Below are positions 8,440 through 42,915 of a stretch of DNA of 64,000 nt, one piece after another (within the stretch, counting starts at the first letter, position 1; each line of letters begins with the position of its first letter). The notes beneath the pieces are model-generated. The model was not told the origin of the DNA, searched no databases, and saw nothing but the letters and a program-made list of their open reading frames with translations. Source of the stretch: Chrysomallon squamiferum (lineage: Eukaryota; Animalia; Mollusca); contig CM022670.1 in the NCBI GenBank assembly GCA_012295275.1, positions 29,574,001 through 29,638,000 on the forward strand, written 5' to 3'. The translations under genes and the position numbers were made by a program.

Positions 8440-9295
8440 ATGGATAAATCTGACATTTCAGTGTCAGTAGGATTTGAATGCAAACCTGCTTCAACGCTGA
8501 ATCATAACATTCACAACACTTGCATTCAGGATGATTTTAATGTGGACTATGCACACAAAGTTGACAAATTAGATGGCAGTTTAAAGTTTTTGGATTCTGA
8601 AAGAAAACATGGTTTGTGGACAGAGAATGATGATATGGAAGTGAAAAGTGATATTCCCAGAAACCATGACACCTGGGATGTTCTACTAATGGAAGACAAA
8701 GCCAGAACCAGAGAAGACTTATCTAAAGGGATTTTTTCTGATGGTGAATCTGATCATGATGATCATTTTTTGGAAAAATCATTATCAGAACCAGAAAGAT
8801 CAAGAGCAAGTAACTCTATTGAAGATTCTTTTTCTGAAGATATAGGGTCTTGTGATGATGCTATGGAAACAGACAGTTCTGAAGGTAGCTGCAGAGAAAG
8901 ACTGGAACCAGATACAGATTCAGAAGAGGTATACATGTCAGTTGGATTGGGATGTGTTATTAACAGGTCAGCAGAGGCAAAAAAACAAGAAATGGGAAAT
9001 TTGTCAAATATAGATGAGGAAGAAGAACTGGAATGTTTCCAGGAAGATACAGATAATCTAGATCTGGTTCCAGATGTTGATCTCAGAGTATTAAGTGCTA
9101 CTTCTGATTTGGGTGGAGGAAGGAGAGGCATTCCAAACACACCAGCAAGTTTTCTGGCAGACACTTCAAATGGTCTGAGAAATGTTCAGTCAAGGTGAGA
9201 AGAAATGTAAATAAGAACTGTTACAGAATTATTATAAATTTTTCAGTGATTAGTAAATAATATCATTCTTTGATTAAGAAAATGATTATGGTTTT

Positions 9296-9328
<33 letters not shown>

Positions 9329-12300: not shown

Positions 12301-13530
12301 CCATCATTTATTATTCTTATGATATCACAACCATTAACTATTCATAATATAATCATATCACGACCATTTACTATTAACAATATATCATAACATGGCCATT
12401 AACCAAACTTTCTCATTTAAATACATTTTTCATGTTATATTCACAATACTTTTTATGTATTTCTGTGAGTTCTTTTGACAATTACTTTAACCAAGCTCAG
12501 CACATTACTATTTCACACAATGAACAAAATGTCTTATACTCTTTGTATTGCTCAGTGAAAGCCAGGCAAATATGAATTCACAGCAAATAAAAAAAATAAT
12601 TTGTTCACTGAGTTATATTCCACTGTACCTGTTTTACTGGAGTAAATAAATCTATAACAGTTGAGAACCATGCCCGAGCAAGGTATTCAGTATTTAAGAA
12701 TCTGTGACTTTGGATATGATTGTTTTTTAATGTGTGCTGGGATTTGATTAATTGAGAATATTATTGATGTGTTCTGTCACCAATTGTCACTGGGATTGAT
12801 TCCTGCAGAGTGTTTTTGTGTGGTAAGAAGTAAAAGAGGAAATATCAAGCTGATGGTGATAAAGGAGAAAAGAGAAATGGAATCAGGATCTGGTTCATGT
12901 CCTCCTGTGAAGTGGCAGTTGCCAGCCATAAAAACAGAGCAGGCTTTGAGGTACACTGACAGAATATTCTACATTTTTCAATTTTTCATAAGTTAGTTTT
13001 CGTTATTTATAAAAAAAAACTTTTGGGGTGTAGTGATAGAATACTGTACATGTTTCAGTTTTTGTTAAAAAAGTTATGAGTAACATTTCAGCAGTTGCTT
13101 TATGAAAGCTGAAATCTGAATTGCAGTTGTAGTGATCTGGATGACAGCATGGAGTATTAGTTTCATTTATAATAGAAGACTGAAAATAATATTAGATTCG
13201 TAGAGGAATTGAAAATACTAACCCAAACAGTTTGGTGATATAAATTTAAATGTCCTGTTTTTAACTATTTAATACAGTTGTATTAAATTTTTATCTGAAT
13301 TAGTTTAGTCATTTATACTGATTTCTTTTTAAATCAGATTAAATGTTTTAGGTTTCATTTAACCAGTGTATCATAGATTTTCGTAATTTCTATTACATGC
13401 CACAGAAATTATATCATTAAATAAATACAAATCTTTATCACATTTAAAAAAAATACCCACTCGATTATTTCAGTATATGTAATAATATTTTTTTAATGCT
13501 TTATAACATGTTTAAAACTTTTAAGCTTCA

Positions 13531-13566
<36 letters not shown>

Positions 13567-16500
13567 AAAAAAAGAATAATAATAACAAAAAGATAATAAA
13601 CAAAAATATAACAAATATGTTATTGTATTTGTTAGCATTCATTAACAAGTAGCAGGAAAGGAAACTCTTTAATACAATGCTACAGTTAAGAATAGTCCTG
13701 TTGTCCGTTATAAACATTATATTTCAGATACCATTACCCTTTTCTTTCTTTTCTCCTTTTCTGTATTTTAATGAAAATACTATTGTTCAATGTGTTAATT
13801 TCTAAATAACAATCTATATTGGAAACTTATTTTTGTGGGCATTTTTTTTCATTATTATGGTACAAATTTGGCACTTTGTTAGTTTAAGAAAAACAAATGC
13901 TTATTGGATTTAACTTTCATTATGATATATCGTTTTCACTACAAATACAAACAACAACAATAATAAAATATGTAGTAATAAACATAATAAAAGAAGGAAA
14001 GAAGGGTGCATGCTGAAATATCTAAATAGAATATAAAGGGATAGAATGAGCTGAACTGGTCCTAATTTGAAAAGTGAAAAGCCAGTAAGTAATACCTCCT
14101 ACCTGACACAGATTAAAAATATATTGTTCACTCTGCACTGTAATTTAAGACAAACAGGGTACATTTATTGAGTAAGCTGTTGTTTATATACTGAATATTA
14201 CTGAATGTTTGAAACATTTCTGTTTATTTCTCAAATATGTTGGTTTATTTTTGGAACTTATCTTTTTATTTGTTGGAAATACTTCCAGTTAGGGTCATGA
14301 ACAGTCATGCCTTTTATGTATCCTATAAGGTAAGGCATTAGAAATAAATCTAAAATATGGGGCAATGCTATTGAGATTGTTTTAATAATAATGACCCTAT
14401 TAAAATCAGGTTTATAGCCAACCAATCTAGTGCTTTTAAATCATTAAACTTTACTCTCAGTAATTATTTAATTATTATTATTTTTTAAATATCGTAGTCA
14501 AAATAAAAATAAAAATTTTGCATTTTCTGGGTGTAAATTAATTAAAGAAAACTGCATTGATAATATCTTGATAATGATGATGATAATAATAATAATAGGA
14601 ACTGTATCTATGAACTAATGACGAAGATAATAATAATAATAATAATAACAACAACAAAAAGGTTAACTTTAAGACAGGAATTTTTACATTATCTCTGAAT
14701 ATTAACTATAGATTATACAATTCTGTAACATATTTAATCTGTTACTGTTGTATAGCTGTTTGTAAGCACTGTTAACACAAACATTATCAACTCCACTTGA
14801 CACCAAAACTTTACCTTTATTCACTGAATTCAGTTTCACAGCTCACTGGTTTTAAATGTATACTAACAATAAATAGAGGAGGTCTGTTTCTGAAATTAGT
14901 AGGTCTTATGTCCTTAGCAACATAACTTAGTTTCTATGTGTACATATGTGTTTGTATGTGAACCTGGGTGTACAGGTGTGTTTAAATTGGTGTGTGTATG
15001 TGTATATTTTTTACAAAACACAAAACACACATACATATATATATTAAAGTACATATAGATAATATATATTTATTTTCTCAAATCTTTTCTCTTTTATATT
15101 TTAATGTTCTTTCTTTCTAAGGCAAATAAAGTGTAAGAAACTCTGTTAAAGTTAATTCAAATTGTAACAGTCAAAGATCAAATTCAGTATTATCATGTTC
15201 TATATATTTAGGCAGCTAATATCAGATTTATTTCTTTTTTATTTATTTGTTTTATTTATTTATTTATATTTTTTAACTGCCAATAATAATTAAAATAATA
15301 ATAATAATAAATAAACAGAAGTAATATCTAAAGGCAACCAAAAACTGTATAGAATTTGGAATGCTACTACATACAGAGACAATGTAATGCACTAAAATTA
15401 CTAATGTCAAAAAACCCCACAATTTCTTTTTGTGTACTTGTCTGTAAATACATGGCTTTTTGGCTTTAATCTCTGCACTCCTTACAAGCTACAAAATATT
15501 GAACCTTTATCTCCTGATCTGGTAACACAATACTGTTAACATATATTACCCAGCAACCACCATTATCACATTTATAGTGAACTGCATATGTATTATAAAA
15601 TAGTGGTAAGGAGAGTGTAAAATTCAAAGGAAATATTGATATAGGCTTACATAATACATATTCATAGGTTATGTGTCAAATAAAATGCCTGTACTTGAAG
15701 GATATGAATGGCATATTTGGTGAAATAGAAAAGGTTGTTTTTCTAGTTGTGTAATACAGTGTTAGGTGACAGAGGCATGTAAGATAAAACTGTTACTGAA
15801 TAACAGCAAACGCTGGTTTACCTGTGTTGTCAGTTCATTTATGATTATTTTAACATAACGGTGTTTCAGGCAAAAGGTAAGTATTTTCTTCTTCTAAATT
15901 TAGTTGTGTTTATTATGGTTATTTATACAGAGCTGATTTGTATACATTTTATATATATGTATGTAATTATTTAAATCTCTTTCCTTTGTGCAAATAATAA
16001 CAAAACACCTCTCTGTCATGCAAGTGAAAAAGTCAGTGACTAACATTAATCCTTTGTTTGAAAACACAGCTTATTCTTTAACATAAAAAAAATTAAAAAT
16101 AATAATAATAAAATAAAATTAAAATCTTCTAAGCAAAATACTATTGTTTTAGCAAAATACTTAAACTTATGAAACACTTTATAATTCATCTTCTTGTTAC
16201 CAGCATACTTACCTCTGAGCAACACATTTTTTCTCAATTCTCAAAAGTGGCATATTTCCAATTTCAGCCAAAGTTCATTATTGACACATCAAAATCTACT
16301 GCACATAACCCATTTGAGAGAAGCACATATAATCAATAAAATTAGCTAACAGACTGATGTTTTCTCTCTTAGTGTTGAAGATTTATTCTATAAATTTTGG
16401 TGTGAAACTAAAGCACCCATTTTAATTATAAAAACAAATACCTTTAAAGGAAAGAGAGAGAGACAGATGCATGTATGTATATAGATAGATGTGTGTGTTA

Positions 16501-17119
16501 TCTTAAAGTTTACTAATTTAAAATGTGATAAAGTGGAATCAAAGTAACATTTGACTGTTGGAATAGGAAATAACTGAAAAACTGCTGATAGGATCTTACA
16601 ACTCATCACACTTCATGTAATCACTCTGGCACTAATTACTGCTAATTCTTAATATTTAATTTATATTCCTTTACTAAAAGTTATTCTTATCACCTCTTTT
16701 TAGTCCATACTTCAGGATATAGTTAGAATGGGTTATTTATGTAAATATGAACATATTACTATAATGTCACACATTAACCATCTGATGGCATAATACTTTT
16801 TTTCCCCAGAGACACAACTCGAGCATGTGAATCCAGAGAAGCCATTTTCCGTCGTGCACTATCTCTGATGTCAACACGGTGCACTAATGACGTTGGTAAC
16901 AACATGGGTGTGCCTCTAATTGATGTGAATGAACCACCATTTGGTGTTCATGTTCCTGTGTATTTCCACATCCACCAGAACAAACCATCTCCAATGGCTC
17001 CACTCAAAGTAAGAATTTTCTTATTGAATACAGAATTTGATACATCAGGAAATAACAATATTTATGTTTTAATCTTCATTAAAAAAAAAATAATGAATAA
17101 ATGAATACATTTTATATAG

Positions 17120-17172
<53 letters not shown>

Positions 17173-17458
17173 ACTAATAATAATAATAAAAAATAAATAA
17201 ATAAATAAAATAAAAACAAATTAAATAAATAAAAAATAAATGAAAAAACATTCCTTTTTCAATGTAAAGATATGTTTAATATGTCTTAATATGATTTTGT
17301 ATTTAACATATACCTGCAAATGGTAGCCAAAAAAGTCTTCATTTATTTAGAATGATTGTCTAGATTATGTTCTGACAGAAAGTTTTTCTTACCTTGTATA
17401 CTGAGCAAAATAATTAAGCTATTTGTAGTTGGCTATGTCCATCCACACACAGACACAC

Positions 17459-17513
<55 letters not shown>

Positions 17514-18029
17514 TCAAACTCAAACATTCTCACCAATTGTCATAGAGATTTTATTTCTGAAAGGTGGATTTCCTTTCTTCTTTTTTTTAAATTTTACCAT
17601 GGACTGTATAGACAATTCTTTTTTTCATTATCAAACATAATATTGAACAATATCTTCACCATTTCTGTTTCAGATGTTCTTTTTATATTTGCATGTATGT
17701 GTAATAAATAGTATTTAAATATTTTACACACACACATACACAGAAAAGATAGCAATTTAACAGAATGAAATTAACTATCAAATATTTAAACTTTTTAACT
17801 TACTTTTTAATATCCAAAATTCTCACAAATGTCATAAAAGTGCTATGTTATTATCTGATAATAGTGTTGTTTTAAGATATATTTAGTGTTTTACATAAAT
17901 GACATACAATAGAAATATAGGTAAATGATATAGCACAGATTTAAGTAAATAAAATATAGCAGATATAGGTAGTTAAATGGTATACCACAGATGTGTAATA
18001 GATACAGGAATAAATGATATACAATTTTC

Positions 18030-18064
<35 letters not shown>

Positions 18065-18922
18065 AGAATTCACTTCAACACAGAAAGATGTTATAACATT
18101 AAATCTGATTTCTACCCATTTATATTTGTTTTTCAGGCTTGGAGAGGTTATCATGGCAATGTATATTTTGAACCAATTGCCATCAAAGGTATTCAAGAAG
18201 AGAAAGAATCTAAATTTACATCGCCAAACTGGAGAGAGGCAAGCACAGACAGCCAGTATCAACAAATGATGTCGACAAGGCGGCTGAGATCATCAGGCAG
18301 ACCAGCTACAACTCCTCCATCTAGATCAAACACACGACTTTCTGCCCGCAGCTCTGCTATAAGCCAGCCACAGACACAACAGCAGAGTGTTCTGCAGGAC
18401 AAGCACATGCTGAGTCATTCTAGTGAACCAAGCCCTGATGATGTCCAGTTCAAGCAGGGACTGCAGGACACTGGCAGTCTGAATGTACGCACTGAACAGT
18501 GTGAGCCCATAAGTAAAAAACAACCTTACAACAGAGAGAAAATCTGTAAAGGATCAGTTGCCCATAAGCTGAAGGCCCTGAAGGAAGAGAAGAAGGAACA
18601 AGAGAAGAAGAAGAATCCACTGCTGAAAGTGAGTGGTGACAAATTCAGTCCGGCACTGTCCATGTCGCCATTGTTACGCACAACAACTCAGTATTCATAC
18701 AGCAACCAGAGACTGACGATGAACAGCCCTGATCCCTACCACTCAGCATTCGAACACCTCCCACCCCTTGAGCAGGTCAGAGTCAGTTTGCGACACATGG
18801 ACAATTTGAGTGATGGTTCTTATGGAAGGAAGGTCACAATTACAGAAGAGTTGAAACCTTTTATCAAATACAGTCCTGATGTAAAAGCTAAATATCAAAG
18901 ACAAGTGCACTACCTCAGTTAA
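8440..18922 (+). CDS. Uncharacterised protein, ~592 aa long isoform: acidic disordered N-terminus, ordered central segment, S/R/K-rich C-terminus
   Basis: In-frame GT-AG exons 8440-9194, 10716-10754, 16810-17008, 18137-18922. Central part EDTTRACESREAIFRRALSLMSTRC...PLIDVNEPPFGVHVPVYFHIHQNKPSPMAPLK|AWRGYHGNVYFEP. Candidate 5'UTR exon at 6482-6520 and donors near 4971, 5200 and 5596. AATAAA near 19156. Family not recognised. Confidence 0.7.
9679..10658 (+). mobile_element. 5'-truncated L1/Tx1-clade LINE 3' end, intronic
   Basis: Degraded ORF2 C-terminus with a zf-RVT-like motif (CPLC..DEDLCHLFLYC) ending at 10442, a 3'UTR with AATAAA near 10636, and an A/TA-rich tail. Exact 15-bp TSD ATAAAGATGATAGTT at 9664-9678 and 10659-10673. 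Confidence 0.8.
12001..12402. repeat. Degenerate ~30-bp minisatellite (CACCACCATTAACTATTCATAATATATCATAT)
   Basis: Roughly a dozen tandem imperfect copies are visible. Confidence 0.85.
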
Positions 18923-19206
18923 ATGTTCATGCAGTACATATACTAAATTGGGACCTCAGTTAAATGATTATAGGCATGTATCATTCACTTGTGTTTCTAT
19001 AACAAAAATTTATTTAAAGTATTTCAGCTTGGAAATATGGATAGATGGAGATGTGTTCTGTGCTATTTCTCAGATTACACTGCACATTCAGTGAAATGTG
19101 CAGTATTCTAGAGACTGCACAGGGCAAATCAGTTTGCACTTATGCCCATCACAGTAATAAATATTTCAGAGTTTGTGAAATAAAAGGTATGTGAATGATG
19201 CAGATG

Positions 19207-21758
19207 TATTACCTTTTGATTAATAATTATGTCAGATTTTAACAACAATAATGCAAATATGGCTTTCAGATTTATAATGACAATGATGTCAAAGCATAAC
19301 TCTGTGGACCCCTTATTTCACTCTTTAAGGAGAATGAATAAATTAACAAACAAACAAACAAAAAATAAATAAATAAATATTTGGTTTTTATTTTGTTCTT
19401 TGAAGTAAAGCACACATATATTTCACCTTGTTATTGACATTCCAATGTAATATGTTAGTGGAACAATGGCCAATGCTGCTAGGATACATTTCTGAAAAAT
19501 AAACCTCAAATTAGTAGAGCATCAAGTTATTTTTGGTAGACATTTGGCTTGCTTTCAATTCTTCATTTCCTTTTTCTAAATATATTTTTTAAATTATTTT
19601 ATTCACAAACTTTAATTCAAAGAAAAAAGTATGTATTGTGAAATAATAAGAATAATAATTACAAAAACAACAAAGAAAACAATAATAAAGATGATGATCA
19701 TCATGATAACTATAAAATAATTATGACAACAATCTTTATAAGTGATGACCATTGTTGTCATTATTACAAGATGATGACAAATTTACTTATTTACATACAG
19801 CAGCTCCACCAATCATTTTGTTATCCTCATCTGTATAATCCAACACAAGGGCAAGCACAACAAATACCAGCAAGTCTGATACAGATTAAGAAAACTACAT
19901 CACAGGTGTATCTTTATAAGTTAATAAACCTTTATGTAAGCTATTGTTCTGAAACTATAAACCAAAAGTCTTGGTTAGTTATCTCCACTTCACAGTTACA
20001 TTTCAAACATAGACAAGGTTTTATCAAAGCTTTTCCTAGCTGGAATATTAAAAATATTCCCAATTTCTATCGACAGGATTTTATAAACAGTTACAGCTGC
20101 AGTGATCAGAATTATTATAATGTTCTAAATTTCTACAGTGTTTTATAAAAATCTACACTAATCACAATAGTAAAATGTTCTCAGTTCCAAACAACCAAAA
20201 ATATATTTAATCATTTTCTAATATTTTTCCGGCACAGTTATTATATCTGTGAATAAACTAAAGTAATTAATTGTTTTTTCACATTTTACAGAAGAAAACT
20301 GTAATAAGGATACTGGCAAGAATAACACTGTCTCCATCCACAGTGTACTTATAGTAGTAGACATTGAAAGACTGGTGTGTATACATAATAATCTCACTAT
20401 GAAGCATTCTCGAATCCTGAAAAAAAAAAAAATGATAAATAGCAAATGAATGAATGTTTAATGATTAAATAAAGAACCACATTTCATACATGTGTTATAT
20501 ATATAACTTTTAAGTTATATTTTAGTTGTTTTAAGCACCCAGTCTTAATTAACAATGCAGGATAACAATAAAAAGCTAAAGTTTAAAAAGGCTGTTTTTC
20601 TGTAGTTGTGTCATCACATACACAGTTGCTGGAAAATAACAGAAAAATTCAACAGTCAGTCCACCACGTATGCAATGATATCATGTCTTCAGTTCTTGAG
20701 GGGTAAAATGGCAGCATTCAAATATTCTACAATGACATTATTTTATTGTTATAATCTGCCAAACATAATAATTTAATAACTTGGAGTATTGTGAATTTTA
20801 TAAAATTATTTATTAATATCCAACACAGACAATTATATACCACAAGTTTTCACTGCATCTGATTACTCAAAAAGACTTAAATCATGAATGTTTATTATTT
20901 CTCCAATATACAGTTTTAGAGAGAAAACAGTGTACATAGTTTGATTGTGCTAACCTTCTTAAGGATTAAGTCTTCTGTTGCAAGTAATTTAAAATAAGAA
21001 TGTCATATTAATTGTAAAAATGCATCTAATTACCCATAAAAAATTACAGATAGATAAATAGATATAGATATAATAGTTTTATAGAAAAAAAAAACCCATT
21101 TTAAACAATACAACACAATTACATGAAATTATCAAAATGAAGTAAAAATAAGTTATGTATTATCAATGCTAATATTTTTCTATTTGTTAATATTTACTTA
21201 CTAATGGCATTTCACTGCAGTCAGCAATATCAATTTGTTCTGGAGACAAAAACAAAATCTTTGTCATTGTCTTGCTATTGAGCTGGCAAAAAAAAAAAAA
21301 AAAAAAATTAAAAATAAAATAAACATATCTACAAACAGGAGTGAATTTAATGTGTCATTATATATACAACCAATGAAGTTTTTGTTCAATTCTGCCATTT
21401 AAAAGAAGAAAATCAATTTAAAAATATATATAATTTCTTTTCTTTTTAACTTTCTTGCAGTGTTAATAAAATCACTATTATTGTTAATTTCATCAATTTA
21501 AAAACAAAGTAAGAGAAAATGCTTAATTTCATGTAAGTTATCTGCTGGCATTTATTTTATTTTATTTTAATTTATTTATTTATTATTTTTATTCCATTTT
21601 ATTTTATTTTATTTTATGTTTTTGTTATGTTTTTGGCAGGGGTATTAATAATATAAATTTACTAGTTTTACTGTAGTGTACAATGTGCTTACTATACGTT
21701 AGATACAAGAATTATAACACATGACAATCTACGGTACTTACTTTTGCAATAGGTATTG
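19207..21758 (-). pseudogene. Inverted partial duplicate of the CAX gene (last 17 nt of coding exon 6, exons 7-10 and their introns)
   Basis: Reverse complement of 26579-29139. Copied exons at 21282-21202, 20416-20314, 19875-19799 and 19491-19427 have the same lengths as the originals and intact splice sites. Exon differences seen: TCA>TCG, GTC>GAC (V>D), CTG>TTG. Confidence 0.9.
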
Positions 21759-22370
21759 ACCGATTGATGCTGGTGCCCTAATAATATGGTAGAAATTACA
21801 ACAAATCTGATTAAGGGCAAGGACGTTTACTTTCTTCAAAATAAATATCACATGATTTTTTGTGTATGAATTTACGTATGCGTAAAACGACATGATTTAT
21901 TATTTTAACGTACGTGCTTGTCAGCTTGTTACACGTTTATCCTTGTATGGTAAGATGCATTTTAAATGCTTTGATAATCATATTTAAGATAGATAATTGT
22001 TAATCAGTATTTTTGTTTACCACTATCATGACTATAACTTTATCAGTCGATTAACTGTATCAGTGTATGATGAGTATCACGACTGGGAGTATCTCAGTGT
22101 GGCAGGATCATGGGTATGTGACATGTCCAGTTGTTCTGCCGCGAAGTTCCAAAATGTCAACACAGTATTAATAGCATTACAGTATTAATATTATTATTTG
22201 TTACAGCAATAGAAATATTTTTATAATGCATAATACATATATATACACACACACACATATATTATTATTACAATTGACAGTTGTGGAATTGTTTCTCTAA
22301 AACTTGACAATATGATATGAAGAAAATCACCTTGAAATTGCTTTTACAGCTGGCTGGAGCTTCATTTATA

Positions 22371-22588
22371 CAGAGGGGTTACAAAAGTAGGTATGCAGTT
22401 ATGAAAAAAGAAAACTCTTACAGTACTCATTGTATTTATTATTCAAACAAAAAAGCTAACCTAAAAATATATGCATTTTTATTAATTTAAATAAAATGTG
22501 GTTAATGACACTCAAAATAAGAAAAATGAGTCCTACTAAATTCACTGATGTGATACTACTATATACCTACTTTTGCACACACACACTG
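22371..22588 (+). mobile_element. Tc1/mariner-type MITE, copy 1
   Basis: TA|CAGAGGGGTTACAAAAGTAGGTAT ... ATACCTACTTTTGCACAC..CTG|TA, with a TA target site. Same family as 33945-34157. Confidence 0.75.
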
Positions 22589-22822
22589 TATAAAAAACAT
22601 ATTTCTGACACTGTTGCTGTAAGACTACATTATTTTGTTTGACTTGGACATAGCAAAGATTTTTATTTTATGTGATGACTGATATACTACTACTACTACT
22701 GCTGCTACTATTTCTACTACTGCTGCTGCTTCTGCTGCTGTTACTACCACTAATTATTTAAATAAAACTTAAATTATTTTTCAGTAAGACGATATTAAAC
22801 TGTATGTAGTGATAAAACCAAA

Positions 22823-25800
22823 ATGTCCTCAAAACTCAGTGACCATGTCACAATGTTAGACAACTCCGATGACCACAGTGCGTTCACCAGGTCCGAAGGG
22901 TCAGGATGTCCACATGTTAATGAGACAAGAAACAGACATTCAAGAACTCACTCATTAGAGGAACCTCCACACAAATATGAACAGAATGAGACCAACTTTG
23001 AAAACAGCTGTGTCATGCTTCATTCTCCAGAAAATGATATTGAGGCTCATAGAATCTCAAATAACTACTTGGTAAATTACTTTTTTATTTTCTTTATTTT
23101 CTTTATTTGTTTCTTAGTTAGTTAGTAAGTTCTAAAAGGGAATAAATATAATAATAAAGAATAAAGATTCTGATAACATCATATAGACACACACACAAAC
23201 ACACACATTCATAAAACAATATTTTAATATTATAATAATATTTAAGGAATGAAAAGACAAAATTAAATTTAAAACAAATAAACTGTAGTTTAATGAATAA
23301 CAGAGGCTATTTTACCAGAATATGATGGTGTATCAATAAACTTTATTATTAATAATGTATTTCAGTTATAAATGTAGGTTAAGACATTGTAAATTCAGAG
23401 CTTGAATTTAAAGTATACCTGTGATGTTAAATAAATGGTTGAATAAAATTCTTAATATTTACAAGTTTTGGTTAATTTATTGTCACTGATTACAAAGTAT
23501 GATAATAAAATACCTAAAAGCTGCTATTTTACCCAGAGACAACTGGAGTAATGGTATCATTGCATATGTTGTGGACTCATACATGTCTGTTTTGCTAACA
23601 CTACAATATTTTTGAGTAACTGGTTCCCCCATCCCTTTCTACAATGACATGACAGTTTCAGAAAAATGTCACTTCCCAGATTTTTTTTTGAGGTTATAAT
23701 TCATTAATAAAGTATGAAGAAAAAAGTCATAGAAATATAAAATATAAAATATAACTTAGAAGTAAACAGAATATAACTGACAGACTATTTCTTTATATCA
23801 CAAAAATTATTTGCAATGCAAAATTTCTTACTTTTCAACAGGAATAGAGGGATTTTATAATATTTCTGTCAATTTAATTTTAGTTTGGGTTCAAGAAATG
23901 GAAAAGTCATGTGACCTCACGTCCTCTGTCAATGAGGTCAGAAATAGTTCAGGATTTATATGCTGATATTAACAAAGTGAAACCTGTGAAAGGTATAAAC
24001 ACTTTTTAAAAATTTTGTTTAATCTAGTTTTCACAGATAATTTCTTATTATTTAATTCATCAGTTTTTCATCAGTTATTTCATTTTTACTAATATTTTAG
24101 CCAAGTTTAGATTTTCAGCATGCTTCTATACTAATCAAAATAAATAAATAAAATTTTTACTAAAGTTTAAACAAAGACAAAAAATAAAATGGAAAATGTC
24201 AAAGAAGTGATAATGAAAAGATTTCAGAAGATTACAGTATCATCAAACGTTTCTTATGGCTTGTTTATTCATCAGTAGAAACCATTTTACCAAATAATAA
24301 ACACAATAGAAAACCACTCTGAAGATACAGTATTCACATTCACTAAGACAAAGCCTGACACAGAAACAGAGACAATAACTGCATACATGGATGGAAGAGA
24401 AAGAAAAAAGGATAAGCGTATCTTCTAGTGACTAGCATACAACTACTATTTTCAATTTTTAATGATTTATAATTAATTTTAATTTTTCGTGTTTACTATT
24501 TTTAATTTTTATTGTAGTTTATTAATTTATTTATCATCTTGTTTTTTCAGTGACTACTGTGAGGCCCAGTAACATTATTTACATGTTGACATTTGGCTGG
24601 TGCTTGTTCGTAATTTACCTGCTGGTAGCTGGTTTAATGTTTCTAACATACTTTGGTAGAGGCTATGGTGAGATATACAGTTTAAAATACAGCCATTGTT
24701 TGTATATTCTAAAAGAATAATGACTGTAACACAATATTTCACTGATAATGATAGTAATTGTGATATTTATATATATATATTTATTTATCAAATGAGACAT
24801 TGTCCAGTGCAAGCATATATGTCTACATGTGTTTGTGTGTGTTGATAGACATAAACATAAAATTAATGTTTAGGCTTTATCATATCCATAGATTATATCA
24901 CTAAATATTTCATTTCAAATAAATTATAACTGATCAGCTAAAGACTAATTTTTTAACATGTTTTTTGGTTATATGCTAAAAACTTGCTTTGGTAAACTGA
25001 GTTTAACAATATTTGATGGGGGAAAAATGGCAAATTTCAAAAAACCTATTTTTCTTTTTCCTGTTTTAGGAAAGTTTTGTTGGAAAATGGCAAAATATTT
25101 TCTATGGCCATTTGGCAGGTTTGTTCATCAGGTATATACTGTTTTAGTTATTTCCTACTTAATGTTAACTAATAATGTTAAATATTTTATAGTAAAATGC
25201 ATCTTAAATGATATAATTAGTATAAATATATTTTGTATGCTTCCACGTAATTATTTTATTGGGCTAGACATTTACAGTTGACAGTAATACATTTTATTTT
25301 TTATAGCATTAAGCTTCTTGTTTTTAACACCACTTATAAATTAAAATTTCATATATCTTTATAAAAATAAAATAACTGTCAAATTTAATAGGAAAACAAA
25401 AGCAGTTTTGTAAATATTTTCACACATTCAATATTAATAAAAACAAAAATATTTTCATTTTCTTAATTAATATTGAATGTGTGAAAATATTTTTAATGCT
25501 TTCTTTTTTCCTGTATATACATGCACACACATACACATATTTTGTAAGTCCTGGAATTTTTTTTTTATAATTAATATTGAATATGTGAAAATACTTTTAA
25601 AAATGCTTTCTTTTTCAGTTATTTCATTTTCATAAAGTAATATATGAATATCTATCTATGTATGTTATACGTCTGTTTTTTAATATCTTTGAAAATTAAA
25701 TAATTTTTATACAATTATCTCATTTTTAATTATTTAAACATTTAAGAATTAAGACTATATTTTAAAAAAATTCAATAAACATTTATATTGATAATGCCCT

Positions 25801-28800
25801 TTCTTTTCTTAACAGATTCATTCAGTGCCATTACTGGCTGTGGCTAAGAGTTGTGAAAATGTAACTTTCTCGTCCAAAAATAATCACATACATGACTTTG
25901 ATGAGTCGACATCTCTGATTCATAACAGTATGTCACAGACAGAAGAAAAAGTCACCAAATTTCCATCAGTTAATGTATTGGTAAGGGTGTCTGTATTATT
26001 TTAATTTTGAGATCTTTTCATTCTTTTTGTTATTGATTTATTTATCTTTTTGATCTTTTTCTTCTTATTTATTTAATTATTTATTTATTTATTCATTCAT
26101 ACATTCATTTCTTTATTTATATATTTTTTTGTTTTGTTTTTAAGAGCTATATAAAGAAAGGAGGTTGATGTTTTCTTTATATTTAAATTGTTTGTTCTTA
26201 TAGTCTTATTAACCATTGCTGAACATTCAGCTGTAATAGTCACAGTTCATTGAATTGTAATAGAATATTAAATACATATTGCTTCATCTTTTCAACTGTC
26301 CAGGAACATGTCTGTGTGTAACATTTTTGTCATTAGAAAGTCACCTTTTAAGTGAGGATATTAAGAAGCTTTTATGAAACAAGTTATTATACTGGAGAAT
26401 CTGTATGACACCCTCCCCCCAAAAACGTTGAAAAAAAAAAATAATTAAACATTTTATTTAAAAAATATATATTTATTACAGAGAAAACCTGTCACTTATT
26501 TGTGGTTTATTCTTGGAATGCCATTCTTGTTAACAGCTCATTTTGTTGTCTGGTTTATCAGCTGGATGTTTGTTGTTACAATACCTATTGCAAAAGTAAG
26601 TAGATTGTCATGTGTTATAATTCTTGAATCTAACATATAGTAAGCACATTATTATGTATTTTGTAAAACTAGGAAATTTATATTATTAATACCCCTGCCA
26701 AAAACATAACAAAAACATAAAATAAAATAAAATAAAATGGAATAAAAATAATAAATAAATAAATTAAAATAAAATAAAATAAATGCCAGCAGATAACTTA
26801 CATGAAATTAAGCATTTTCTCTTACTTTGTTTTTAAATTGATGAAATTAACAATAATAGTGATTTTATTAACACTGCAAGAAAGTTAAAAAGAAAAGAAA
26901 TTATATATATTTTTAAATTGATTTTCTTCTTTTAAATGGCAGAATTGAACAAAAACTTCATTGGTTGTATATATAATGACACATTAAATTCACTCCTGTT
27001 TGTAGATATGTTTATTTTATTTTTAATTTTTTTTTTTTTTTTTTTTGCCAGCTCAATAGCAAGACAATGACAAAGATTTTGTTTTTGTCTCCAGAACAAA
27101 TTGATATTGCTGACTGCAGTGAAATGCCATTAGTAAGTAAATATTAACAAATAGAAAAATATTAGCATTGATAATACATAACTTATTTTTACTTCATTTT
27201 GATAATTTCATGTAATTGTGTTGTATTGTTTAAAATGGGTTTTTTTTTTTCTCTATAAAACTATTATATCTATATCTATTTATCTATCTGTAATTTTTTT
27301 ATGGGTAATTAGATGCATTTTTACAATTAATATGACATTCTTATTTTAAATTACTTGCAACAGAAGACTTAATCCTTAAGAAGGTTAGCACAATCAAACT
27401 ATGTACATTGTTTTCTCTCTAAAACTGTATATTGGAGAAATAATAAACATTCATGATTTAAGTCTTTTTGAGTAATCAGATGCAGTGAAAACTTGTGGTA
27501 TATAATTGTCTGTGTTGGATATTAATAAATAATTTTATAAAATTCACAATACTCCAAGTTATTAAATTATTATGTTTGGCAGATTATAACAATAAAATAA
27601 TGTCATTGTAGAATATTTGAATGCTGCCATTTTACCCCTCAAGAACTGAAGACATGATATCATTGCATACGTGGTGGACTGACTGTTGAATTTTTCTGTT
27701 ATTTTCCAGCAACTGTGTATGTGATGACACAACTACAGAAAAACAGCCTTTTTAAACTTTAGCTTTTTATTGTTATCCTGCATTGTTAATTAAGACTGGG
27801 TGCTTAAAACAACTAAAACATAACTTAAAAGTTATATATATAACATATGTATGAAATGTGGTTCTTTATTTAATCATTAAACATTCATTCATTTGCTATT
27901 TATCATTTTTTTTTTTTTCAGGATTCAAGAATGCTTCATAGTGAGATTATTATGTATACACACCAGTCTTTCAATGTCTACTACTATAAGTACACTGTGG
28001 ATGGAGTCAGTGTTATTCTTGCCAGTATCCTTATTACAGTTTTCTTCTGTAAAATGTGAAAAACAATTACCCTTTAGTTTATTCACAGATATAATAACTG
28101 TGCCGGAAAAATATTAGAAAATGATTAAATATATTTTTGGTTGTTTGGAACAGAGAACATTTTACTATTGTGATTAGTGTAGATTTTTATAAAACACTGT
28201 TGAAATTTAGAACATTATAATAATTCTGATCACTGCAGTTGTAACTGTTTATAAAATCCTGTCGATAGAAATTGGGAATATTTTTAATATTCCAGCTAGG
28301 AAAAGCTTTGATAAAACCTTGTCTATGTTTGAAATGTAACTGTGAAGTGGAGATAACTAACCAAGACTTTTGGTTTATAGTTTCAGAACAATAGCTTACA
28401 TAAAGGTTTATTAACTTATAAAGATAAACCTGTGATGTAGTTTTCTTAATCTGTATCAGACTTGCTGGTATTTGTTGTGCTTGCCCTTGTGTTGGATTAT
28501 ACAGATGAGGATAACAAAATGATTGGTGGAGCTGCTGTATGTAAATAAGTAAATTTGTCATCATCTTGTAATAATGACAACAATGGTCATCACTTATAAA
28601 GATTGTTGTCATAATTATTTTATAGTTATCATGATGATCATCATCTTTATTATTGTTTTCTTTGTTGTTTTTGTAATTATTATTCTTATTATTTCACAAT
28701 ATATACTTTTTTCTTTGAATTAAAGTTTGTGAATAAAATAATTTAAAAAATATATTTAGAAAAAGGAAATGAAGAATTGAAAGCAAGCCAAATGTCTACC

Positions 28801-29347
28801 AAAAATAACTTGATGCTCTACTAATTTGAGGTTTATTTTTCAGAAATGTATCCTAGCAGCACTGGCCATTGTTCCACTAACATATTACATTGGAATGTCA
28901 ATAACAAGGTGAAATATATGTGTGCTTTACTTCAAAGAACAAAATAAAAACCAAATATTTATTTATTTATTTATTTTTTGTTTGTTTGTTTGTTAATTTA
29001 TTCATTCTCCTTAAAGAGTGAAATAAGGGGTCCACAGAGTTTTGCTTCAACATCATTGTCATTATAAATCTGAAAGCCATATTTGCATTATTGTTGTTAG
29101 TACTTAAAATTTGACATAATTATTAATCAGAAGGTAATATAATCTTGATTATAGATTTGAATTGACATTTTATAACAGGATTATGTTTAGTTAGAAGAAT
29201 CAAAAATCTAAACAGAATAAATATCTAGAATGTGTGAAAGGTCACTGGATTAATCCCTCTTGATGGCCCTTGAACTGTATTGAAAATTCATGTACATTTT
29301 ATTTCACATATTCTAAATATTTATTATTGTTTTTGCTATTATTATTA

Positions 29348-29394
<47 letters not shown>

Positions 29395-32300
29395 TATTAT
29401 TACAATTACTGTTATTATGATCATTAATGTTGTTTTCGGTATTACTATGTTTTATATTTATATATTTATAAAATTAATATTATGTAATCAGGAAACAGCT
29501 ATTACTTACTCTAATTTATTTATGTCATTCTAGTATATCAGCACAAAGCAGTTTTGCTATTGGTGCAATACTGAATGCTACATTTGGATCAATAGTAGAA
29601 ATTATTCTTTATGTTATTGTTCTGAAGAAAAACAAAGATACAGGAAAGGACTGCTACCAGGAATTTGTCAAATCTTCATTAGCCGGTAAAAGTATTTTTT
29701 CTATTTCATATAAGTTTTAAAATGTACTGTTGTTATAGTGGGGTTTTTTTTGTTGTTTTTTTTCTTAATTTATTCATTTTATATATATACACTCATAATT
29801 ATTATAAATATATGTTAATGATGTACATTACACAACTGTCAGAATGGAAAGTTTTATGTCCTATAGTAAGAAAAAAAAATCTATATCACACATTTCTCTT
29901 TATTTCATTTTGTCATAAATAAAGCTGTGACTAGTGGAATTGTTATTTTGTTTTTGCTGGTGTTTTTTTCATTGTTTTTGATTTAAAAAACATGTTAATA
30001 GAGTCCCATATAATGTTTGTTTTCACTGATTACATTTATCATTGTGGTACAATATAAAAATTATTATTATTGGTTCAACTTCAAAAATCTCATTGTTAGA
30101 TTTTTCTTTTTATGTCACTTTAAAATATATAAAAATTGTTCATTATTCTGAATAGGTACAATTCTCGTCAGCATTTTACTGATTCCTGTGAGTATGATTA
30201 TTATTATTATTATTATTATTATTATCTGTTACTAAGTTAATGTTAATGCTGCTTTTATTCTTATTATTATAACCAACTTCATCATCATTATTAAAATAAA
30301 TGTATTTTGTTTTTTTTAATGTTAAAAAATAAGAAGATATATACTTTCTGTTATTGGATTAAACATTCAGATATCTACCTACCTACCTACCTACCTATGT
30401 ACACTCTATCTATCCATCTTTCATTATCTGTCAATCTATCTATCTATCTATCTATCTATGTGTTTGTTTATCTATATTTGACTGTCTGGATGGGGATAAT
30501 GTTTTGCCAGTCAATCTCAGATCAGTTTGTAATTAATGAAAATGTAAATTTTCCTTTTAATATTATATGAATATTAATTAGCATTCTGGAGTGGACATAT
30601 CTCAGAGGTAAATTTTGTGTTGAAGGTGCTAAAGGTCATTGTATTAATCCCTCTTGATGGCCCTTGAACTGTTTCCCATTTCAGTCTTGCTTCATAACTG
30701 CTATATCAATGTCATATTATGTATCATCCTGTCTATGTGATTGTGCAATTGAAATACCCCTTGCTGTTAATCAGAAAGGGTAAGCTATAAAGTGGTGGGA
30801 TAGGTTTCTTGTCTTGTTATCTGAGTGTCTTAGCTAAATGATCACTGCTATATAATCATAAACTAAATATTTCCTTTCTTTAATTTTCAGGGAGTGTGCA
30901 TGGTAGTTGGAGGAATTAAACACAGAACACAAAATTTTAACCCTCGATCGGCTAGTATTAGTGCTGCACTCTTGTTTGTTTCTATTGCTGGTCAGTAACT
31001 TCTGTTTCAAATTCATTTTATACGAAACCACACGAAACTTTTTTGTTCTTGACAGAATTTTTTTTTTCAATAGTTGTTATAATTCAGAATTTGAAATATG
31101 TTTAAATGTAAAATAGCTATGGAAATCTTTACTCAGTTGCAAACAGAACCATGCACATACATATACTTTTATTTCTATTTAGTATTTATTTATTTTTTTA
31201 TTTTTTTATTATTATTTTTTTTAAATAAATCATTCTCACAATAAAGAATTTTAACGAAAACATGTTTTAGGTGTCTTTGCACCCACCATGTTTTCTAAGA
31301 TTTATGGAACACTGCAGTGTGAACACTGTGAGAAGTACAACTCGACAGCTGAAGTGAATGATAATGTCAGTAATGTCACAGGCTTCCAGTGTTCATCTTG
31401 TCAGCAGTCAGTGGTTAGTAGATTTTGTTCAAGAAAAAAAAAAAAGATAAATAACAATTATGATAGTAATAATAAATATATAAATATATAAATAAATAAA
31501 TAAAAACATCTACCCATTCAGCTATCAACTTTAGTTACAGGGTCATTGTGGTCATAACAATGCTACTGTGGCAGTTTCTGTTTTAATTTCCAGTTCGGTT
31601 TAGATGGGGACACAAGTCTATACACCAAGCATGTTGAACCACTCGTGTATTCCTGTGCAGTGATTTTACCTCTGGCCTACATCACAGGTCTTGTTTTCAC
31701 ACTGAAAACTCACTCTGCCCATGTTTATGCAGCTTTTGAAGAGCAACAGAAAGCACAGAATTCAAGTGGTATGAATCTATAGATCATTTAACATAGACTG
31801 ATAGACAAACAGATAGGTAAATATAGAGAGACATATATAGGTAATAGATACAAAGACAGACAGATGTAGATAAATAGATAGATAGGTTGATTGGTTTGTT
31901 GATAGACTGATAGATAAATGTACTTCCAGTGCCTCTAACTATCTGAGTGCTGAACAGTTCTGTTATTTTTACACTATGGGAGTGGTAGTACCAGTAAAAG
32001 CTCTAATAAAATTCTTTAAAGTTATTATTTTACTGTTTTTGGGAGACCTATTATTGTTCATGACAAAGTGTGACAATAAAGGAAAACCTTTGAATACATG
32101 GAAATTAGGTAGCTCTACTTTATCTAACAGATTTATAAGAAATTTAGAGCAAATTGATCTACACTGTAAATGAAGATGCCAAGATACGTAGGAACTGTAT
32201 TCTTTTCTTGTTAAATGTTCTTACTAATTAGCAAAAAAGAAAAACTTGATTTGGAAATAGGCTGAATACATTTTTTCATAAAGGTAACCCTATAAGATAC

Positions 32301-35300
32301 TTTATGATATAATTGCACCTAACAGAGTGATATCAAATTAGTAGATTAAATAAATGAAAATTATTGTCAAATTTACATTTATTAACATTTTATTTAATAT
32401 ATAATAGTCAAGTTAAAGGCTTCATTAGGTGTCATTGTGTTTTGTTCTTATATTTAACTTTACTGTTATGTACTTTTAAATTAAATATCTTTCTATGTCT
32501 ATTTTTTTCTTTTTACAGGATTGAGTCATGGTGCTCCACAGTGGTCTCGTATAAAGAGTACCTTAATTTTACTTTTCTGTGCTGTGTTGATAGCCCTGAG
32601 TTCTGATATTATTACCAACAACATTGAACCACTGGTGGAGACTTCAGGAGTGTCGGAGGTTTGAAATATTATCAAATGTATTTGTTTATTTGGTTTATAA
32701 TCAAATAATATATTTTTAAAATATCAAAATATCTAAAAACAAAATAAAGATGTACAAGATATATTTTTTATATTTTCAGTAATAAAAAAAATTAAATAAA
32801 ATATGATTATAATCTAGTAATATACTCAGAAAATATAAAAACAAATAAAAATGAAATAGCAGGTGTATAAAACCATCTTTTTAAATTTTAAAATAATCCA
32901 AAAAAAAAAGAGAAAAAGCAAACTATCAGGATTATCTGAGGTTTGTAACATTTAAATATATTTGTTTAATTGTTTTATAATTAAATAATATTCTCAAAAT
33001 AGAACTATTGATCCCCAAACAAAAACAAGAATACAAATATTTAACAGGTTTACTTAAATACAGATTATTTTAGTAATGGTATAACTTAAGTTTTCAAGTA
33101 CATTAGCATAATTTTTTAAACAGAATTACACTCATGCAGTGTTAATGTTTCATTTTTACTTTTATTTTTTTTTTTTTATTATTATCTTTTGTAATTCTTA
33201 TTTTCTACATGCAGCTATTTATTGGGGTGACTATGCTGTCTGTGATCCCTGAGTTACCAGAAGTTGTGAATGGAATACAATTTGCTCTACAAAACAATGT
33301 TAATCTAGGGTATGTAAAATAAATATAAAATAAATAAAAATAAAAAAAATTATAAAATAAAATAAAATAACAGGAGTTAAAGCTGTAAGACAAGTATATA
33401 TTGGTAAGAAATAATAGTTTTACGAAAATAATTTTTTATGCTTAATACCTGAAATGAATCGCAATAATAATTGTTTTAAAATCAAAATAATAATATTGCT
33501 ATTAATTAATCATTGTTGATATATTAAGCATCATTACATTTACATAATTCTGAATGAAACATATTCATAATACCAAACTGCATGTAAAGAGAAATGTCAC
33601 ATTTTATTAAAAGATTAAGATTAAAAAATAAATATTTATGACATAGGTTGAATCAAAAATATAAAACTGCTTTTCTTTCAGTATTGAAATTGGCAGTTCA
33701 ACAGCAATACAAGTGTGCCTTGTGCAGATTCCTCTTCTCATTCTTATTAACCTTATATACGTATGTATCCTTTCTTGATGAATTGATCATTAACAACATC
33801 TCCCTGCATTTTATTGTAAATGGTTATTTTGCATAAAACTGTTATTACTATGGTTCAGTGCCATGAATGAAGAAAACTGCTCCTTTTTCTACACAGGTCT
33901 ATGCTTTTTACAAATCAATAGAAATTCTTACTTGTACCTTCCTATAGAGGGGTGCAAAAGTAGGTATACAGTAGTATCACATCAGTAAATTTAGTAGCAC
34001 ATTAAATTAGTTGGACTCATTTTTCATATTTTAGGTGTCATTAACCATATTTTATTTAAATTAATAAAAATGCATTTTTTGTTTGAATAATAAATGCCAT
34101 GAGTACTGTAAGTGTTTTCTTTTTTCATAACTGTGTACCTGCTTTTGCACCCACCTGTATATAAAATGATGATGATGATGATGACAACAGTAATAACGTG
34201 GTGTATCAAACTTTTGGAAGTTTTATTTCAAATTAGGTTAATTATAAGTAGTAAAAAGAAATTTTTATTCAGAGTGAAATAATAGTTAAGTAAATACACG
34301 TGTGTTCTATGCAATTTGTCAGATTATGCTGCACATTTAGTAAAATGCGTAAGGCAAATCAGTTAACACTTATGCTTATCCCAATATTAAATTGCACCAA
34401 TACTAGGCCTAAACAATCAATTTTCAGTATTATACAAGACCCATACTTATCCATATCATATTGGTTCTATCATGTTCGCATTGTTGATATTGAATATAGG
34501 AAGGGAAAAACTCTTAGTTATTTTAAATATATACTTTTGTTCATAATCAGACTATCATAAAAAGTGTGGCCTAAGGTACTTTGGCCTATCAAATATATGT
34601 TTAAAATCAAGGAGGTACACTGATATAAACTAAAAACAGACAAAATGAATTTAGAAAAAAATAAAATATATTAATCACTAAATTTAATACTAGTGACAAG
34701 TTTTAGATTCACACTAGTCTAAACCCTTTCAAAACTGGGAGCAAAGTGTGTTTGTAGCTATTCCCATGGCTTATGGTTATGTGTAGGTCCTTTGTGGTAC
34801 ATGCCAAATCCATATCATAAGAGGGCACAAGATCTCAAGATTGTAACTGAGCACAAATCACTAGAACATGCATACTGTTACAAATATTTTAATATATTAA
34901 GAAAAATCAGGATTGTTTTTAATTATTGGGATGGTTTAATTATTCTAGACCAGCTAAGATTATCCAATTTTTTTTTTTAATATATTGTTATCATTAGACA
35001 CATTTTATTATCCAGCTTTTAGCTAAACTTATTTCTTTCTTTTTCTCACAGCCAATGGGGTTGATTATGGTTTATCAGGATGTACACTTGTGGGCTGTTA
35101 TCTTCTCAGTCATAGTTATCAACTACATCTTCCAGGATGGCAAAAGTGATTATTTTCAAGGTAGATATTTACATTAGTTAACTTGTATTGTCACATTGTT
35201 TATTTGCTTCCAGGTAGGTTATTGATTTATTTGCTTTGACATATGAATCTTAGTTACAAACAACATACTGTTTGTTCTTGGAATACAAATTTGGGAATTG

Positions 35301-35522
35301 TTGCCTTTATGCATTACTGTAAAAAAAAAATTGTAATCCTATTTCAAGCAATATATATATTGTTGTGTGTTTGTCTGTGAGAAAGAGATGCTTTTTTTAT
35401 TTTTATATTTAAATCTTTTAATATTGGTTATTTTATTAACAGGTTTTATTGTTGTGCTGATCTACTTGGTTCTCATGGTGATGTATTTCTTCACTCTCAC
35501 CCCTCCACAAGCTGTCTGCTGA
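22823..35522 (+). CDS. cax1: Type II CAX / VNX1-like cation (Ca2+ or Na+/K+)/H+ exchanger with YccF (DUF307)-type N-terminal region, 748 aa, 20 coding exons
   Basis: Exons 22823-23071, 23884-23992, 24551-24667, 25070-25131, 25816-25980, 26482-26595, 27052-27132, 27922-28024, 28460-28536, 28844-28908, 29534-29685, 30156-30187, 30891-30990, 31271-31413, 31594-31768, 32519-32658, 33215-33309, 33682-33760, 35052-35160 and 35443-35522 join in frame (2247 nt). Motifs: NNYLFGFKKWKSHVT, YFLWPFG, YYYKYTVDG, ISAQSSFAIGAILNATFGSIVE (alpha-1), FTLKTH, PELPEVVNGIQFALQNN (alpha-2), DGKSDYFQG. A probable non-coding first exon ends at 21949. Confidence 0.92.
26579..29139. repeat. Right (genic) arm of the 2.55-kb inverted repeat
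   Basis: Near-identical reverse complement of 19207-21758. The mirrored track ORFs 19723-20148(+)/28187-28612(-) and 20218-20445(-)/27893-28117(+) show the same relationship. Confidence 0.95.
28025..28459 (+). other. U12-type (minor spliceosome) GT-AG intron in CAX
   Basis: Donor |GTATCCTT. Branch-like TTTTCTTAAT lies 9 nt before the exon with no polypyrimidine tract. The frame restores the conserved N (ILA-N-LL). Confidence 0.85.
30590..30835 (+). mobile_element. Degenerate tRNA-head SINE with a Nin-like core
   Basis: Head GGACATATCTCAGAGGTAAA...TTAATCCCTCTTGATGGCCC and core ATCCTGTCTATGTGATTGTGCA..CCCTTGCTGTTAATC..AAGTGG resemble recalled gastropod Nin-SINEs. A second fragment sits at 29231-29278. 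Confidence 0.55.
33945..34157 (-). mobile_element. Tc1/mariner-type MITE, copy 2 (opposite orientation)
   Basis: TA|TAGAGGGGTGCAAAAGTAGGTAT ... GTACCTGCTTTTGCACCCACCTG|TA. The interior is the reverse complement of copy 1. Confidence 0.75.

Positions 35523-42040: not shown

Positions 42041-42074
<34 letters not shown>

Positions 42075-42879: not shown

Positions 42880-42915
<36 letters not shown>

What the first reader, a model, noticed from the sequence alone, without database searches (positions are those of the whole stretch)
19207..29139. CAX promoter and exons 1-6 bracketed by 2.55-kb inverted copies of its own exons 6-10: a possible flip-flop gene switch
Seen: 19207-21758 is the reverse complement of 26579-29139. 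The 4.8-kb spacer holds the putative promoter, the non-coding first exon and coding exons 1-6. The inner junction falls inside exon 6, and the copy keeps all its splice sites. Established: long inverted repeats support recurrent NAHR inversion of the sequence between them. Inference: a crossover would splice promoter + exons 1-6 onto the upstream copy of exons 7-10. That product would stop before the alpha-1 repeat, and exons 11-20 would lose their promoter. The result would be a reversible full-length/truncated toggle for an ion exchanger.
Basis: partly seen in the sequence, partly recalled or inferred. Interest (0 to 1): 0.8.

Follow-up and report, generated by a model that had tools for sequence, protein, structure and literature searches.

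The report
Inverted half-copy beside snail CAX gene
A calcium/proton exchanger gene, likely of a snail, sits head-to-head with a real, backwards 2.5-kb copy of four of its own exons; the copy is likely silent, and a DNA flip between the two would likely break the gene rather than work as a purpose-built switch.

Summary
The inverted repeat is real: 19207-21758 vs 26579-29139, 97.9% identical. Contigs from 5 of 5 DNA runs laid (three studies) bridge both ends of the upstream copy, and arm depth is about twice unique depth. The host is an intact, spliced, expressed 748-aa animal CAX gene. The copy holds 17 nt of exon 6 plus exons 7-10.

The switch reading has no support. Both products of a flip are predicted inactive. 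The copy carries V328D at a residue hydrophobic in 12 of 12 homologues. Its intact splice sites are expected by chance. RNA contigs show gene-type letters in 9 of 9 marker calls, against 10 of 25 in DNA. The arms differ about ten times more than alleles do, with extra decay at both edges, which fits an old duplicate under slow gene conversion.

Best reading: an inversion-permissive gene/pseudogene pair like IDS/IDSP1, where a flip would be a rare null mutation. Orientation could not be tested, because only short contigs were available. The scan noted similar layouts in two other genomes, but not this locus.

The parts
18137..18922 (+). Last coding exon of the upstream neighbour gene (unnamed), stop at 18920-18922
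   Evidence: ORF; RNA contigs over it; no Pfam family
19179..19184 (+). AATAAA, likely polyadenylation signal of the neighbour gene, 22 nt before the copy begins
   Evidence: sequence; function inferred
19207..21758 (-). Upstream inverted copy (left arm): last 17 nt of exon 6, introns 6-9, exons 7-10, 231 nt of intron 10
   Evidence: both ends bridged in 5 of 5 DNA runs
21202..21282 (-). Copy of exon 7 (no differences)
20314..20416 (-). Copy of exon 8 (one synonymous change at 20411; V328D at 20331)
19799..19875 (-). Copy of exon 9 (no differences)
19427..19491 (-). Copy of exon 10 (one synonymous change at 19473); read-through meets a stop at once; AATAAA at 19392 on this strand
21759..26578 (.). 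Unique spacer (4820 nt) that a crossover would invert: promoter, non-coding exon, coding exons 1-5 and most of exon 6
21700..22099 (+). CpG-rich likely promoter region; the longest RNA contig starts at 21855, 97 nt from the copy's inner end
   Evidence: CpG o/e 1.0-1.2 vs 0.41 window-wide; RNA record 26
21855..21949 (+). Non-coding first exon (5' end is a minimum)
   Evidence: RNA joint to 22785; record 26 letters 1-95
22823..35522 (+). CAX coding region, 20 exons, 748 aa; YccF/DUF307 in exons 3-4, alpha-1 Glu403 in exon 11, alpha-2 Glu644 in exon 17
   Evidence: 80% identical to Gigantopelta aegis P0001
26579..29139 (+). Gene-side arm (right arm): end of exon 6 to intron 10 of the working gene
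28025..28459 (+). Intron 8, with a minor-spliceosome-like donor (GTATCCTT) and branch-like motif 16 nt from the acceptor; also kept in the copy
   Evidence: junction confirmed in RNA; U12 consensus recalled

Best explanation
A 2.55-kb piece of the CAX gene (end of exon 6 to intron 10) lies inverted between the neighbour gene's 3' end and the CAX promoter, and it is likely a silent, fixed partial pseudogene that would only rarely recombine with the gene. Shown: both arms exist in five DNA runs from three studies, and the gene makes full-length spliced RNA with gene-type letters. Inferred: the copy arose once by an inverted duplication (template switch, or staggered-break inversion later reversed). 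Occasional arm-to-arm gene conversion likely keeps the centre at about 0.55% divergence while both edges decay faster. A crossover would invert the 4.8-kb spacer and give two predicted non-transporting halves, a loss-of-function allele of the IDS/IDSP1 type that selection would keep rare.
For: Real and two-copy. Copy lacks exons 1-5, start codon and promoter; carries V328D where 12 of 12 homologues have V, M or I; exon substitutions 3/326 vs intron 10/2042, p=0.41. RNA: 9 of 9 marker calls gene-type in two runs of one study, vs 15 of 25 copy-type in DNA at the same five sites (Fisher p=0.002, calls not independent). A 2600-nt RNA contig joins the non-coding exon to exons 7-10 and on into exon 11. 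Centre of arms 13/2368 substitutions (0.55%) vs 9/16110 (0.056%) between window and runs in unique DNA; most distant run 0.16%, p=0.008. Both letters turn up among the five DNA runs at 11 of 12 central marker sites, as expected for fixed arm differences. Edges: 7 of 22 difference clusters lie in the outer 100 nt of each end, p=0.001 (p=0.01 for 150-200 nt). Xenopus CAX lacking its N-terminus or alpha-1 Glu is inactive (PMC4810305). In a human palindrome, inversions were 3 against 56 conversions (PMC3723533).
Against: Orientation was not measured: no contig spans an arm, and all four junctions look the same in either orientation. Contigs keep majority letters, so a minority of flipped cells or copy transcripts would be invisible. 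Both RNA runs come from one study and unknown tissues. Allelic distances come from the longest pieces only and are likely underestimates. Edge decay could instead come from error-prone synthesis at the junctions (recalled, not looked up). The 735-nt substitution-free block is not significant as a conversion tract (p=0.16). No outgroup DNA was available to date the copy.
Confidence: 0.78

Rival explanations
1. The spacer is a common, recurrent inversion polymorphism in the germ line, so null CAX alleles segregate at appreciable frequency without regulation.
For: Arms of 2.5 kb at 98-99% identity only 4.8 kb apart; human inversions between inverted repeats are often recurrent (PMC3961182 passages) and are missed by short reads (PMC12632684). 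Edge-versus-centre pattern suggests past exchange.
Against: Arm differences are several-fold above allelic differences. The flipped allele is a predicted null of a conserved gene. RNA contigs show the full-length form.
Confidence: 0.08
2. The copy regulates CAX through RNA: read-through from the neighbour gene would enter the copy on the strand antisense to CAX exons 7-10 and could form double-stranded RNA or small RNAs.
For: The copy begins 22 nt after the neighbour's AATAAA and ends 97 nt before the CAX RNA start; the neighbour is represented in both RNA runs.
Against: Unspliced RNA contigs over introns 7 and 9 carry gene-type letters (19633, 20930 in X6; 20930 in X9), not copy letters. No Rfam match.
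Confidence: 0.06
3. A regulated or frequent somatic flip-flop turns CAX on and off reversibly in some cells.
For: Geometry allows it and splice sites are intact. Yeast flip-flop loci use repeats of about 2 kb that contain truncated genes (PMC6692504 passages). Somatic flipping would leave no germline trace.
Against: No copy-type RNA letter in 9 of 9 calls. Both halves predicted inactive. V328D in the copy. Splice-site retention expected by chance. Fixed mismatches between arms. No second gene set or silencing element is seen in the spacer.
Confidence: 0.04
4. The inverted copy is an assembly or amplification artefact.
For: Near-identical inverted copies can be produced by chimeric reads or misjoined haplotypes (general knowledge).
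Against: Both copy junctions bridged in 5 of 5 DNA runs from three studies; arm depth 1.7-2.3 times unique; both sets of edge letters present in the same runs.
Confidence: 0.01

Closest known systems
Inversion-permissive gene/pseudogene pairs: IDS/IDSP1 (Hunter syndrome), F8 intron-22 repeats, SORD/SORD2P (PMC11610362 passages; PMC12632684 abstract and section 3 part 1)
   Same: A partial, high-identity copy lies close to the gene in opposite orientation; a crossover splits the gene; short reads cannot see the inversion. IDSP1 is likewise a partial copy a few kb from its gene.
   Different: A mollusc-type CAX gene; very short invertible segment (4.8 kb) holding the promoter; no inverted allele has been observed here.
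Palindrome arms under gene conversion, human Y palindrome P6 (PMC3723533 passages)
   Same: Inverted arms around a unique spacer; arm-specific variants; conversion is likely, with inversion as a rarer outcome.
   Different: P6 arms are far longer and over 99.9% identical; here 2.5 kb at 97.9%, and one arm lies inside the gene.
Yeast flip-flop mating-type switching, FF1 type (PMC6692504 passages)
   Same: One pair of inverted repeats of about 2 kb, containing part of a gene, around an invertible segment.
   Different: There both orientations are found and each expresses a different working gene set next to a silencing element. Here only one state gives a working product and no second orientation was seen.
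Animal CAX Ca2+/H+ exchangers (PMC4810305 passages)
   Same: N-terminal DUF307/YccF domain, CAX core, conserved alpha-1 and alpha-2 glutamates; 80% identical to the Gigantopelta aegis protein.
   Different: No difference in the protein was found; the flanking inverted half-copy is the only unusual feature.

Membership tests
Animal CAX exchanger | N-terminal DUF307/YccF domain | tested here: met
   PF03733 on exon 3 (E 5e-8, above cut-off) and exon 4 (E 3e-5, below cut-off)
Animal CAX exchanger | CAX core with alpha-1 and alpha-2 glutamates | tested here: met
   Glu403 and Glu644 align with homologues; P0001, 80% identical, matches YfkE and Vcx1 structures at E 3e-32 and 7e-32
Animal CAX exchanger | 13 transmembrane segments | tested here: inconclusive
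   12 hydrophobic peaks by a simple hydropathy scan
Animal CAX exchanger | Ca2+/H+ exchange activity | not testable with these tools
   needs an assay
Inversion-permissive gene/pseudogene pair | High-identity copy near the gene in opposite orientation | tested here: met
   97.9%, 4.8 kb apart; real in five DNA runs
Inversion-permissive gene/pseudogene pair | Copy is non-functional | tested here: inconclusive
   Partial, no start codon or promoter, V328D, no coding constraint, no copy-type RNA letters; low-level expression not excluded
Inversion-permissive gene/pseudogene pair | A crossover would disrupt the parent gene | tested here: met
   In silico product of 381 aa ending before alpha-1
Inversion-permissive gene/pseudogene pair | Inverted alleles observed | not testable with these tools
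   Only short contigs were served
Flip-flop switch (yeast FF1 type) | Inverted repeats flanking an invertible segment, often with truncated genes | tested here: met
   feature described in PMC6692504
Flip-flop switch (yeast FF1 type) | Each orientation expresses a working product | tested here: not met
   Flipped state gives residues 1-381 without either alpha repeat, and at most residues 278-748 without the N-terminus; the like Xenopus mutants are inactive. In silico plus homologue data
Flip-flop switch (yeast FF1 type) | Repeats kept nearly identical by frequent exchange (feature recalled) | tested here: not met
   28 substitutions and 8 gaps; centre about ten times allelic distance
Flip-flop switch (yeast FF1 type) | Both orientations present | not testable with these tools
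   No read or contig spans an arm
Flip-flop switch (yeast FF1 type) | Regulated trigger or dedicated recombinase | not tested
   No genome was held to search

The most novel reading that the evidence does not exclude
Somatic recombination between the arms flips the CAX promoter and exons 1-6 often enough, in some tissue, to act as a reversible DNA-level on/off switch for an animal ion exchanger, with mosaic CAX-null cells or a 381-aa membrane fragment that interferes with the full-length protein.
Probability: 0.04. Interest if true: 0.9.

Novelty: new member of a known kind. Interest (0 to 1): 0.25.

Why it matters
As read here it is an ordinary but clean invertebrate example of a gene sitting beside its own inverted half-copy, a known source of gene-breaking inversions that short reads miss. 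The locus is small enough (arms 2.5 kb, spacer 4.8 kb) that one long-read or orientation-PCR experiment would give the inversion rate directly. If flipping proved frequent or tissue-specific it would be a DNA inversion switch in an animal gene. Searches listed such switches for bacteria only (listings seen), and for yeasts.

Tried and rejected
Own genome: none held, so no search for further CAX copies or recombinases.

Empty site (19206 joined to 21759): none among the 4 joints listed or the 15 of 44 shown; contigs drop rare alleles, so this is no proof.

The copy could not be dated.

Target-site duplication: an 11-of-14 match between the copy's two flanks is reached by 47% of random pairs; rejected. 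No junction microhomology is evident.

Divergent transcript from the CAX promoter using the exon-6 remnant donor at 21742: no RNA cover at about 21500-21780 in X6 or X9 and no such joint listed; uncovered parts prove nothing. Read-through from exon 10 into intron 10: no cover beyond 19427 in X9; same caveat.

Mosaic copy/gene letters along DNA contigs were not read as recombinant arms, since the assembler likely resolves each site separately.

The 735-nt substitution-free block as a recent conversion tract: p=0.16. GC bias between arms: 6 vs 4, none.

An exon candidate at 30685-30779 broke the frame and was dropped. Rfam over 17000-45000: no match. Literature: no paper held CAX, gastropod and inverted duplication together; PMC8886624 passages added nothing on animal CAX. 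No supplements were opened.

Full report
Observation. A self-comparison of the window finds one long inverted pair, 19207-21758 against 26579-29139, at 97.9% identity; the alignment has 2516 matches, 28 substitutions and 8 gaps. The differences are uneven: 10 substitutions and 2 gaps in the inner 95 nt, 5 and 1 in the outer 100 nt, and 13 and 5 in the 2368-nt centre. With neighbouring differences merged, 7 of 22 clusters fall in the two 100-nt edges (p=0.001; 0.010 and 0.014 for 150 and 200 nt). The longest substitution-free block, 735 nt, is not significant (p=0.16).

The gene. Twenty coding exons from 22823 to 35522 give 748 aa without an internal stop. Exons 3 and 4 hit YccF/DUF307 and exon 17 hits Na_Ca_ex weakly. 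The nearest named homologue is from the gastropod Gigantopelta aegis: 94% on exon 11 and 80% overall, against 61-66% for Haliotis and Lottia. That homologue matches the YfkE and Vcx1 structures. [quoted passage not shown] This fits the animal CAX family described in PMC4810305 (passages). RNA contigs confirm a non-coding exon ending at 21949 and spliced to 22785, and the exon 7-8, 8-9, 9-10 and 10-11 junctions. One 2600-nt contig begins at 21855 and reaches exon 7 at about letter 950, as the model predicts (949 letters upstream).

The copy. It holds the last 17 nt of exon 6, its donor, exons 7-10 with all splice dinucleotides, and 231 nt of intron 10. Three exonic changes separate it from the gene: two synonymous and V328D. 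Position 328 is V, M or I in 12 of 12 homologues aligned (12 of the 26 hits). Exons are no better conserved than introns (3/326 vs 10/2042, p=0.41), and all 18 splice letters would survive by chance with probability 0.82-0.91. The copy fills the gap between the neighbour gene's likely poly(A) signal (19179) and the CpG-rich CAX promoter.

Is it real? One search listed 11 runs; 8 were laid, all as short contigs. The gene-side inner junction is present in all five and the gene-side outer junction in both runs, with exactly the window's edge differences (10 letters and 7 gap letters; 2 and 7). Contigs in the shared part of the arm are 1.69-2.27 times as deep as unique or junction-specific ones. 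The duplication is therefore genomic and likely homozygous in these samples. One study may be the window's source.

How fast do the arms exchange? The longest unique pieces differ from the window at 9 of 16110 letters (0.056%; 0-0.16% per run), the arm centres at 13 of 2368 (0.55%). Other rows show that allelic variation is somewhat higher than the longest pieces suggest. At 11 of 12 central marker sites both letters appear among the five runs; the cluster at 20264-20265 is gene-type in all five. This is what fixed arm differences give when an assembler keeps one path per site. Decayed edges around a better-matched centre suggest an older duplicate with occasional conversion (inference). If conversion balances mutation, and assuming a mutation rate of 3e-9 to 1e-8, conversion would run at about 5e-7 to 2e-6 per site per generation. 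In human palindrome P6, inversions numbered 3 against 56 conversions (PMC3723533 passages). Germline flips would then be rare. This argument says nothing about somatic cells.

Is the copy used? At five marker sites read in RNA (19473, 19633, 20331, 20411, 20930), two runs of one study gave 9 of 9 gene-type calls; two of these are inferred from a count of two other letters in exon 8 of X9. DNA runs gave 15 of 25 copy-type calls at the same sites (Fisher p=0.002; calls not independent). The most distal marker, 19473, would be copy-type after about 92% of possible crossovers, the exon-8 marker after about 56%. It was gene-type in all three X6 contigs and in the X9 contig. Contigs keep majority letters, so this shows only that copy-type RNA is at most a minority.

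What a flip would do. Promoter and exons 1-6 would run into copy exons 7-10 and stop at once in intron 10, giving 381 aa, with an AATAAA 35 nt further on. This lacks both alpha repeats. The other half could at best give residues 278-748 from the first Met in exon 7, and it would have no known promoter. Xenopus CAX lacking residues 1-316, or with the alpha-1 Glu changed, was inactive in yeast (PMC4810305 passages). A flip is thus predicted to be a null allele.

Comparison. The layout matches inversion-permissive gene/pseudogene pairs. IDSP1 is a partial copy 3.9 kb from IDS in opposite orientation, and the inversion is the most reported IDS variant (PMC11610362 passages). A preprint counts 411 such human pairs and finds inversions in at least 3.6% of 1019 people, unseen by short reads (PMC12632684 abstract and section 3 part 1). 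Recurrence of repeat-mediated inversions is documented (PMC3961182 passages). Yeast flip-flop loci share the geometry, but show both orientations and two working states (PMC6692504 passages). Bacterial intragenic inversions are enzyme-mediated (search listing only). No paper in the held library joined CAX, gastropod and inverted duplication. The scan holds no note on this genome or on look-alike DNA; two notes from other genomes describe similar layouts and reached similar verdicts (unchecked).

Verdict. The flip is geometrically possible and untested. The evidence in hand favours a silent inverted half-copy and a rare gene-breaking inversion (0.78) over a common polymorphism (0.08), an antisense role (0.06) or a regulated switch (0.04). 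Interest 0.25; 0.9 if long reads showed frequent or tissue-specific flipping.

Noticed in passing
window 40988-43825: A second, older inverted repeat: arms of about 1.4 kb, 90.6% identical with 41 gaps, around a loop of about 45 nt; CpG o/e 1.13 vs 0.41 window-wide. Looks like a foldback element or old palindrome; no Rfam match.
   Followed up: partly
window 22365-22578 and 33952-34165: Two inverted copies (78% identical) of a short element in CAX introns; very high summed contig depth over the first suggests a high-copy repeat.
   Followed up: partly
window 28025-28459 (copy 19876-20313): CAX intron 8 has a minor-spliceosome-like donor and branch motif; the junction is confirmed in RNA. Conservation in homologues not checked.
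   Followed up: partly
window 31271-31413: CAX exon 14 has two CxxC pairs and weak zinc-ribbon Pfam hits below cut-off.
   Followed up: no
window about 8400-18922: Unnamed plus-strand neighbour gene with long low-complexity exons; no Pfam hit on three exons; atlas did not answer.
   Followed up: partly
window 9798-10442: 214-aa ORF in an intron resembling the C-terminal end of a LINE reverse transcriptase (resemblance recalled, not tested).
   Followed up: no
window 20790: Run X4 shows a letter in the shared-arm contig found in neither arm of the window.
   Followed up: no
window 45835-46170 and 11980-12401: Tandem arrays with periods of 42 nt and about 32 nt.
   Followed up: no
window 50486-51813 and 53997-60654: Exons resembling sushi/CCP domains on the plus strand and a WD40-repeat gene on the minus strand (resemblance recalled).
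   Followed up: no
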